Source: Malacoraja senta (Eukaryota). Taken from it: DNA of 64,000 nt. The notes below the pieces were generated by a model. It did not search any database. It was not told the DNA's origin and worked only from the letters and a program-made list of their open reading frames with translations. This document shows, piece by piece, positions 17,635 through 17,733 of this stretch. Within the stretch, counting starts at the first letter, position 1. Every line of letters starts with the position of its first letter. The stretch lies in assembly GCA_038087875.1 (NCBI GenBank), contig CM075988.1, forward strand, positions 12,898,001 through 12,962,000. Reading direction: 5' to 3'. Made by a program: the position numbers and the translations under genes.

Positions 17635-17733
17635 TGTAGGCACAAAATGCTGGAGCAACTCAGCGGGACAGGCAGCATCTCTGGATAGAAGTAATGGGTG
17701 ACGTTTCGGGTCAAGACCCTTCTTCAGACCCAT
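17635..17733 (-). mobile_element. Penelope-like terminal repeat carrying an intact hammerhead motif
   Basis: Matches the 3' terminal block of the PLE at 26830-27915. Confidence 0.9.
17694..17733 (-). ncRNA. Minimal type I hammerhead ribozyme motif (PLE-associated)
   Basis: Minus strand reads AUGGGU CUGAAGA A GGGU-CUUG-ACCC GAAA CG UC ACCCAU: full core, helix II, palindromic ACGU in place of helix III, 6-bp helix I. Confidence 0.75.

What the first reader, a model, noticed from the sequence alone, without database searches (positions are those of the whole stretch)
17694..17733. Intact minimal hammerhead ribozyme with a perfect helix I in a Penelope terminal repeat
Seen (minus strand): AUGGGU-CUGAAGA-A-GGGU(CUUG)ACCC-GAAA-CG-UC^ACCCAU. 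All core nucleotides are present with a GUC cleavage triplet, a 4-bp helix II, an extra A after A9, a palindromic ACGU replacing helix III, and a 6-bp helix I. Established: Penelope-like elements carry minimal type I hammerheads with a palindromic, nearly absent helix III that are proposed to cleave as dimers. Other copies here have only about 2-4 bp of helix I, so this is the best candidate for activity. It is antisense to, and ~1.7 kb beyond, the putative poly(A) site.
Basis: partly seen in the sequence, partly recalled or inferred. Interest (0 to 1): 0.7.

Follow-up and report, generated by a model that had tools for sequence, protein, structure and literature searches.

The report
Hammerhead in truncated Penelope retroelement end
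This is one of about thirty short scraps of a Penelope-like jumping gene in the window, carrying that gene's already known minimal hammerhead ribozyme motif; its unusually good closing stem is built partly from letters outside the element, likely added when the scrap was inserted, so it is probably an accident and not a working ribozyme.

Summary
The letters are as described: intact hammerhead core, 4-bp helix II, extra A, palindromic ACGU, 6-bp helix I. The motif heads a 93-nt solo copy (17637-17729, minus strand) of a high-copy terminal repeat: 31 arms in the window. One arm follows an RT-linker-GIY-YIG remnant at 26.8-27.8 kb, so the Penelope-like assignment holds. The 'perfect helix I' is not a family trait. 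Family homology stops at 17729; in four relatives' runs most paralogs continue with a different sequence, which pairs only 2 bp. Four of the six pairs come from 17730-17733, inside a 7-nt stretch between the element and a candidate 6-bp target-site duplication (chance 0.048). Most likely this is a short snap-back filler made at insertion (0.45); chance pairing is nearly as likely (0.35). There is no tandem partner, helix III cannot form in a monomer, and the predicted fold depends on flank length. The insertion is shared with at least one relative, with no sign of selection. Cleavage was not tested. Known kind, low interest.

The parts
17694..17733 (-). Minimal type I hammerhead motif: 6-bp helix I, CUGAAGA + extra A, 4-bp helix II, GAAA, palindromic ACGU, predicted cleavage after C at 17700
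   Evidence: sequence; core and helix count; fold
17637..17729 (-). 93-nt solo, 5'-truncated copy of the Penelope-like terminal repeat, without the roughly 40-nt tail that other copies carry; 85 of 93 letters match the window-derived family consensus
   Evidence: paralog loose ends at 17729 and at 17637-17644 in all four runs
17730..17736 (-). 7-nt non-family stretch at the 5' junction; 17730-17733 supply four of the six helix I pairs; likely junction filler
   Evidence: family homology ends at 17729; lies between element and candidate target-site duplication; origin inferred
17737..17742 (.). Candidate target-site duplication, copy at the 5' side of the element (6 bp)
   Evidence: chance of such a match 0.048
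17633..17638 (.). Candidate target-site duplication, copy at the 3' side (overlaps the element's last two letters)
17741..17763 (.). Flank with weak complementarity to the element's 3' arm; extends helix I past a 7-nt bulge in one predicted fold; may be chance
   Evidence: p 0.005-0.053 over four scoring schemes at 30 nt, weaker at longer lengths; no profile-HMM hit; not specific to its own arm, rank 3-7 of 26; constrained fold
26801..27729 (+). Broken 3' part of a Penelope-like ORF (RT C-terminal region, C-x4-C-xx-C linker, GIY-YIG endonuclease) that identifies the family
   Evidence: translation; Pfam GIY-YIG E 0.00068, 20.3 bits, under the 22.6 cut-off; 18 full-length relatives at 56-61% identity; tblastn E 1e-32 to 1e-38
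27821..27925 (+). Same terminal repeat directly downstream of the ORF remnant, with native pyrimidine-rich upstream sequence
18832..19062 (.). Nearest other insertion: head-to-head inverted pair with a 14-bp target-site duplication; holds the nearest same-strand intact core (18925-18898; helix I 1 bp, helix II 3 of 4)

Best explanation
This is a 93-nt, 5'-truncated solo copy of the terminal repeat of a Penelope-like retroelement that carries the family's minimal hammerhead motif, and four of the six pairs of its helix I come from letters outside the element, likely a short snap-back filler made during insertion. Shown: family membership, the boundary at 17729, and a native helix I of about 2 bp. 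Inferred mechanism: reverse transcription stopped two letters upstream of the core; the last two cDNA letters paired with their own strand in the helix I register and were extended by four or five letters (with a 2-nt slip) before joining the target. This would be the shortest form of the fold-back that gives the six head-to-head insertions in the window. Inferred function: none. The copy was fixed before the split from at least one relative and drifts neutrally. As RNA it would be inactive as a monomer and could at best cleave slowly in an engineered dimer.
For: Family and boundary: (31 arms at E<1e-5); the largest listed group of loose ends on that side is at 17729 in all four runs (116, 109, 119 and 20 contigs; counts may be near a cap), with a consensus that starts with the native continuation. 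Seven arms in the window keep native upstream sequence; the six of them scored pair 0-3 bp in helix I. Filler: the candidate 6-bp duplication leaves 7 nt between target and element (chance 0.048). The family makes target-site duplications of 6-16 bp, and short extra letters sit at other solo junctions (31941, 38250, 50338). Fold-back is common: six head-to-head pairs with junctions inside the hammerhead core, four with duplications of 7-16 bp; palindromes at inverted junctions and self-priming are described for Penelope elements (PMC3846280, passages). Among six junction copies that keep the two native letters, 7 extra pairs were counted by eye against about 2-3 expected (p 0.014-0.085; includes this copy, so partly circular). 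No function: no tandem array here; flank identity to three relatives is 95-96.5%, so an unchanged 30-nt stretch is unremarkable.
Against: The 6-bp duplication is short, AT-rich and overlaps the element end; 1 in 20 random AT-rich flanks give one. The filler matches the predicted snap-back product for only four letters, then needs a 2-nt slip. None of the six inverted pairs was shown to use the helix I register. The copy was picked because of its helix I, so chance cannot be excluded. The weak complementarity further out fits an older inverted remnant better than a 7-nt filler. The hammerhead fold is predicted at 0.75-1.0 with up to 15 nt of 3' flank and is only 2.6 kcal/mol above the best fold at +/-50 nt, so co-transcriptional folding is not excluded.
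Confidence: 0.45

Rival explanations
1. Same truncated solo copy, but the four extra pairs are plain chance: host flank or untemplated junction letters that happen to complement the 3' strand. No function.
For: 0.5-0.9% per junction copy, 3-9% for one window. 42,000-47,000 paralog contigs were laid per DNA run, so many such copies are expected per genome and a scan would pick them out. No profile hit in the flank.
Against: The candidate duplication and the frequency of fold-back junctions in this family give a direct mechanism. X3 shows 37 contigs that match through 17731 and one X18 contig matches to 17732; without denominators this is only a hint.
Confidence: 0.35
2. The upstream flank is the decayed remnant of an inverted arm (a head-to-head insertion eroded by deletions, or an insertion into an older, opposite-strand fragment of the family), and helix I is its innermost part.
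For: The 30 nt beyond helix I resemble the reverse complement of the 3' arm at p 0.005-0.053; the constrained fold extends helix I past a bulge; one other copy (31815-31941) sits inside an older arm.
Against: No profile-HMM hit even at E<=1000 in 17728-17900; significance fades at 80-100 nt (p up to 0.54); the match needs several indels while the direct arm is 91% identical to consensus without gaps; its own arm ranks only 3rd-7th of 26.
Confidence: 0.12
3. The long helix I is native to a subfamily or to a spliced form of the element's RNA (the native upstream sequence looks like a pyrimidine tract ending in CAG just before the core, and in Drosophila virilis Penelope an intron ends at helix I).
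For: PMC4209133 reports the intron end at helix I in D. virilis; pyrimidine-rich upstream sequence in seven arms; 37 contigs in X3 match through 17731.
Against: Those 37 contigs have heterogeneous continuations (agreement 0.37); the group is not among the rows listed for X9, X15 or X18 (481 rows not shown); no other arm in the window shares the upstream letters.
Confidence: 0.04
4. The copy has been kept as a working ribozyme that cuts an antisense transcript downstream of a host gene.
For: Core and both helices are intact, unlike 20 of 26 arms; the count of differences suggests the ortholog in X9 is unchanged over 17704-17731 (31 of 31 differences accounted for elsewhere; inferred); the fold is favourable while 3' flank is short.
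Against: No cis partner; helix III cannot close around 2 nt; fold probability is 0.05 or less with 20 nt or more upstream and 60 nt or more downstream; zero changes in 30 nt at about 5% divergence has p near 0.2; the X3 ortholog has 1-6 changes within 17677-17735 (inferred from counts, positions hidden); literature activity is low or protein-dependent (PMC4209133, PMC11167929).
Confidence: 0.04

Closest known systems
Minimal hammerheads (min-HHR) of metazoan Penelope-like elements (Cervera and De la Pena 2014, PMC4209133)
   Same: Type I topology, full core, extra nucleotide after position 9, G10.1-C11.1, palindromic 15.2-16.2 with no helix III, mostly solo copies from truncated elements, opposite-strand pairs, thousands per genome in fish, coelacanth and frog.
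   Different: Helix II is 4 bp (7-8 bp in Schistosoma, 6 bp in D. virilis); native helix I is about 2 bp (4-5 bp in Schistosoma, 2 bp in D. virilis), and 6 bp only in this copy through junction letters. No cartilaginous fish turned up in the one supplement file that could be searched.
5'-truncated insertions of endonuclease-positive Penelope-like elements, Neptune-like (PMC8557442, PMC3846280)
   Same: C-terminal GIY-YIG after RT, a C-x4-C-xx-C linker, strong 5' truncation, head-to-head inverted copies, optional 30-40 nt tail, target-site duplications.
   Different: This copy is a single tail-less arm; clade placement was not tested with a tree.
PAc (Poseidon) hammerhead of Anolis carolinensis (PMC11167929)
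   Same: Minimal hammerhead in the terminal repeat; inserted copies keep the uncut motif (here 30 of 31 arms start at or before profile column 29, none at the first letter after the cut site).
   Different: PAc was tested and cleaves only with the element's protein; nothing was tested here; different clade by linker motif.
Non-LTR retrozymes (PMC7229834, listing only; preprint 10.64898/2026.07.22.740005)
   Same: Type I hammerhead derived from Penelope-like terminal repeats; dispersed monomers occur.
   Different: Retrozymes are tandem arrays with a hammerhead in each unit; this is a solo copy with no array.

Membership tests
min-HHR of Penelope-like elements | Core CUGANGA / GAAA / UH | tested here: met
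min-HHR of Penelope-like elements | Extra nucleotide between 9 and 10.1, and G10.1-C11.1 pair | tested here: met
   A17720; G17719 with C17708
min-HHR of Penelope-like elements | Palindromic 15.2-16.2, helix III absent | tested here: met
   ACGU at 17704-17701
min-HHR of Penelope-like elements | Short helix I and a helix II | tested here: met
   helix II 92.6% paired over 17 arms; helix I inner two pairs in 13 and 12 of 17; covariation not above shuffles
min-HHR of Penelope-like elements | Located in the terminal repeat of a Penelope-like element | tested here: met
   same repeat follows the RT-GIY-YIG remnant at 26.8-27.8 kb and an endonuclease-end fragment near 37.0 kb
min-HHR of Penelope-like elements | Self-cleavage as a dimer or with protein help | not testable with these tools
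   needs a bench assay; cofold of two 40-mers prefers another pairing, but the active dimer is outside the nested folding model
EN+ Penelope-like element | RT followed by C-terminal GIY-YIG endonuclease in one ORF | tested here: met
   for the family, not this copy: (GIY-YIG just under Pfam cut-off)
EN+ Penelope-like element | Inverted 5'-truncated copies, optional tail, target-site duplications | tested here: met
   six head-to-head pairs, tail in some arms, duplications of 6-16 bp
Neptune clade | CX2-5CxxC linker between RT and EN (shared with Nematis, PMC8557442) | tested here: met
   C-x4-C-xx-C in P0001 and P0006
Neptune clade | Placement in RT phylogeny | not tested
   no reference set at hand
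Non-LTR retrozyme | Two or more tandem units, each with a hammerhead | tested here: not met
   no tandem array at the locus; nearest same-strand core 1.2 kb away in another insertion
Canonical type I hammerhead (Rfam) | Helix III with loop; score above gathering threshold | tested here: not met

The most novel reading that the evidence does not exclude
The hammerhead's own helices set the register for cDNA arrest and snap-back at the 5' junction of Penelope-like insertions. The same step would yield the family's head-to-head repeats when extension is long and, when it aborts after a few letters as here, a copy with a stronger helix I than the parent element: retrotransposition routinely manufacturing better-closed hammerheads.
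Probability: 0.25. Interest if true: 0.45.

Novelty: new member of a known kind. Interest (0 to 1): 0.2.

Why it matters
As an individual motif it matters little: minimal hammerheads in Penelope-like repeats are published, occur by the thousand per genome, and a 6-bp helix I will turn up at some junctions by chance alone. Two things would matter. If junction letters are systematically complementary in the helix I register, that is a sequence-level handle on how these elements make their inverted ends and on what the ribozyme fold does during copying, both open questions (PMC8557442 calls the hammerhead's role unclear). And the copy is a convenient natural construct for a dimer cleavage assay of a cartilaginous-fish-type motif, though a positive result would say little about activity in the animal.

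Tried and rejected
No whole genome is held for this window, so no genome-wide junction count. Pattern scans for more copies found 0 loci in metagenome contigs, viral contigs and prokaryote genomes. Rfam gave no hammerhead hit. Host gene not identified. No RNA holder on record was listed; the one run guessed to be RNA (X18) had contigs on 5 of 30 bins, all on the repeat, none on unique flank: a blank, not evidence on expression. Only 4 of the 24 listed runs could be laid; none showed an empty site, and ortholog letters inside the repeat were hidden by paralogs (20 difference rows, 111 joint rows and 481 loose-end rows not shown). Covariation across 17 arms did not exceed shuffles. An own-arm-specific fold-back of 20-30 nt was rejected (rank 3-7 of 26), as was a full decayed inverted arm. 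Insertion from ribozyme-cut RNA was rejected for this window: 0 of 31 arms start at the first letter after the cut site. Lunse et al. 2017 on dimer cleavage could not be read; only its title in a reference list was seen. Earlier-finding look-ups by place and sequence were empty.

Full report
Observation. A strict core search of both strands finds six motifs in the window, and this is the only one with more than 4 bp in helix I. Scoring 26 family arms gives the same six intact cores, with helix I of 6, 4, 3, 2, 2 and 1 bp. The 40-mer folds into helices I and II, no more stably than its shuffles (z -1.10). Rfam has no match at gathering score in the window and no hammerhead among four chance-level hits around the locus, as expected for a motif without helix III. 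An AATAAA lies at 16020, one of seven on the plus strand between 14 and 19 kb; the host gene was not identified, so the poly(A) context is unverified.

What it sits in. The motif heads a dispersed repeat with 31 arms at E<1e-5 in 64 kb. This copy matches the window-derived consensus at 85 of 93 letters without gaps, from 17729 to 17637. The arm at 27821 directly follows a broken ORF (26.8-27.7 kb) with RT C-terminal sequence, a C-x4-C-xx-C linker and a GIY-YIG domain (Pfam E 0.00068, just under the cut-off). That region finds 18 longer relatives at 56-61% identity, the only named one from zebra shark; two of three scanned carry RVT_1 followed by GIY-YIG, and six tested align collinearly at E 1e-32 to 1e-38. 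The family shows the known Penelope anatomy: six head-to-head pairs, an optional tail of about 40 nt, and target-site duplications of 6-16 bp. A cartilaginous-fish host is inferred from the homolog and from recalled SINE and LINE types; it was not tested.

Where helix I comes from. Seven arms continue upstream into native pyrimidine-rich sequence ending in CAGU or a close variant; the six scored pair 0-3 bp. Over 17 aligned arms the inner two helix I pairs hold in 12 and 13 arms, the next two in 5 and 3, while helix II is 92.6% paired; no measure beats the shuffle control. Laying contigs of three relatives' DNA runs and one run guessed to be RNA on 17535-18335 (4 of 24 listed runs) put 41,946-46,762 contigs per DNA run on the stretch, nearly all on the repeat, and in all four runs the largest listed group of loose ends on that side is at 17729, with a consensus beginning with the native continuation. 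So 17730-17733, which give four of the six pairs, are not family sequence. Against a clean picture: X3 lists 37 contigs matching through 17731 with mixed continuations, and one X18 contig matches to 17732; there are no denominators and most rows are hidden.

How the four pairs arose. (a) Chance: 0.5-0.9% per junction, 3-9% per window, and many cases per genome. (b) Snap-back filler: a 6-bp direct repeat at 17633-17638 and 17737-17742 would be the target-site duplication (chance 0.048), leaving 7 nt inside the insertion. The first four are what a cDNA ending at 17729 would add if its last two letters paired in the helix I register; the rest fit only with a 2-nt slip. The six inverted pairs have their junctions inside the hammerhead core, and self-priming at palindromic junctions has been proposed for Penelope elements (PMC3846280). 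(c) An eroded inverted arm: the 30 nt beyond helix I are weakly complementary to the 3' arm (p 0.005-0.053), but this fades with length, has no profile hit and is not specific to the copy's own arm. I put these at 0.45, 0.35 and 0.12. All three make the long helix a by-product of insertion (together about 0.9).

Age and conservation. In X3 one contig runs from unique flank 53 letters into the element and another joins the far flank, so the insertion is shared with that relative. In X9 and X15 the flank contigs end 26-27 letters into the element, under the tool's 31-letter rule, so sharing is likely but not formally bridged. These contigs are 95.1-96.5% identical to the window. Counting differences suggests none within 17704-17731 in X9 and 1-6 within 17677-17735 in X3 (inferred; positions hidden by paralogs). 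Zero changes in 30 nt at 5% divergence has p near 0.2. There is no evidence of selection, and little power to detect it.

Would it cleave? A monomer cannot close helix III around two letters; activity needs a second copy pairing through ACGU (PMC4209133). There is no tandem array. The nearest same-strand intact core, 1.2 kb upstream, has a broken 10.1-11.1 pair, a 1-bp helix I and lies in an inverted repeat. Predicted folding is mixed: helices I and II have probability 0.75-1.0 with up to 15 nt of 3' flank, 0.05 or less with 20 nt or more upstream and 60 nt or more downstream, and cost 2.6 kcal/mol at +/-50 nt. Published behaviour: a Schistosoma min-HHR gave no monomer and low dimer cleavage (PMC4209133); the Anolis PAc hammerhead cleaved only with protein, was not needed for insertion, and no reads ended at its cut site (PMC11167929). 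Here 30 of 31 arms start at or before profile column 29 and none at the first letter after the cut site, so the templates were probably uncut RNA.

Comparison and novelty. It works like, and meets every testable feature of, the minimal hammerheads of Penelope-like elements; it is not a retrozyme array or a canonical Rfam hammerhead. Seven library searches listed no paper on hammerheads in a cartilaginous-fish Penelope family; a 2026 preprint reports retrozymes in one chondrichthyan genome, and one supplement file of PMC4209133 could not be searched, so a prior report is not excluded. Earlier notes of this scan describe the same clustering of 5' ends and fold-back copies in other shark-like or fish genomes; these are unchecked leads and not independent support.

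What was read. PMC4209133: parts 1-2 of 4 (abstract, results, discussion, start of methods) and a term search of its supplements. PMC11167929: parts 1-2 of 4. Preprint 10.64898/2026.07.22.740005: part 1 of 5 and passages; its supplements are closed. PMC8557442, PMC3846280, PMC6765202, PMC6155905: passages. PMC7229834: listing only. Lunse et al. 2017: title in a reference list only. Figures were not seen.

Verdict. Real motif, right family, ordinary copy. The special feature is a junction by-product, most likely a few snap-back letters, possibly chance. New member of a known kind; interest 0.2.

Noticed in passing
window, 31 arms between 8470 and 57960: 5' ends cluster at or inside the hammerhead core: 30 of 31 arms start at or before profile column 29 (7 of them continue into native upstream sequence), none at the first letter after the cut site.
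   Followed up: partly
window 31037-31255 and 18832-19062: Head-to-head pairs whose junction is a near-perfect palindrome centred at the start of the core, consistent with fold-back at a short quasi-palindrome just before CUGAAGA; duplications of 10 and 14 bp.
   Followed up: partly
window 31759-31941: A younger-subfamily copy inserted into an older arm of the same family with an 11-bp duplication; one extra junction letter gives it a 4-bp helix I.
   Followed up: partly
window 57717-57965: Very young head-to-head pair (arms 98% complementary over 100 nt, 16-bp duplication) of a second subfamily with GUU triplet and a C-G first pair in helix I.
   Followed up: no
window 26770-27925: Longest family copy: about 1.15 kb of broken ORF end plus terminal repeat, directly beside a separate head-to-head pair at 26569-26760.
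   Followed up: partly
tables 5 and 5c, window 17657-17729: Contigs of relatives show joints that return from about 17728 to 17665-17699 (one type marked 'goes back 64'), possibly short tandem duplications of the hammerhead that would place two cores side by side; kind of joint not given for most rows.
   Followed up: no
window, upstream of arms at 27824, 35947, 37125, 37522, 42254, 43234, 45218: Native sequence before the core is a pyrimidine tract ending in CAG or a variant, resembling a 3' splice site at the helix I edge as in D. virilis Penelope (PMC4209133).
   Followed up: no
window 7208-7613 and 45327-45530: A roughly 400-bp inverted-repeat element with 20-bp internal repeats (arms 93% complementary) and a partial copy that abuts family arms at 45.2-45.6 kb; looks like a non-autonomous DNA transposon.
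   Followed up: no
window 60195-63769: Two LINE-type RT/endonuclease ORF remnants (245 aa and 514 aa) on the plus strand; family names not tested.
   Followed up: no
window 472-529, 1879-1965, 6647-6733, 14280-14400: Stretches with splice-like borders that may be exons of the unidentified host gene upstream of the AT-rich 14.4-16.0 kb region.
   Followed up: no
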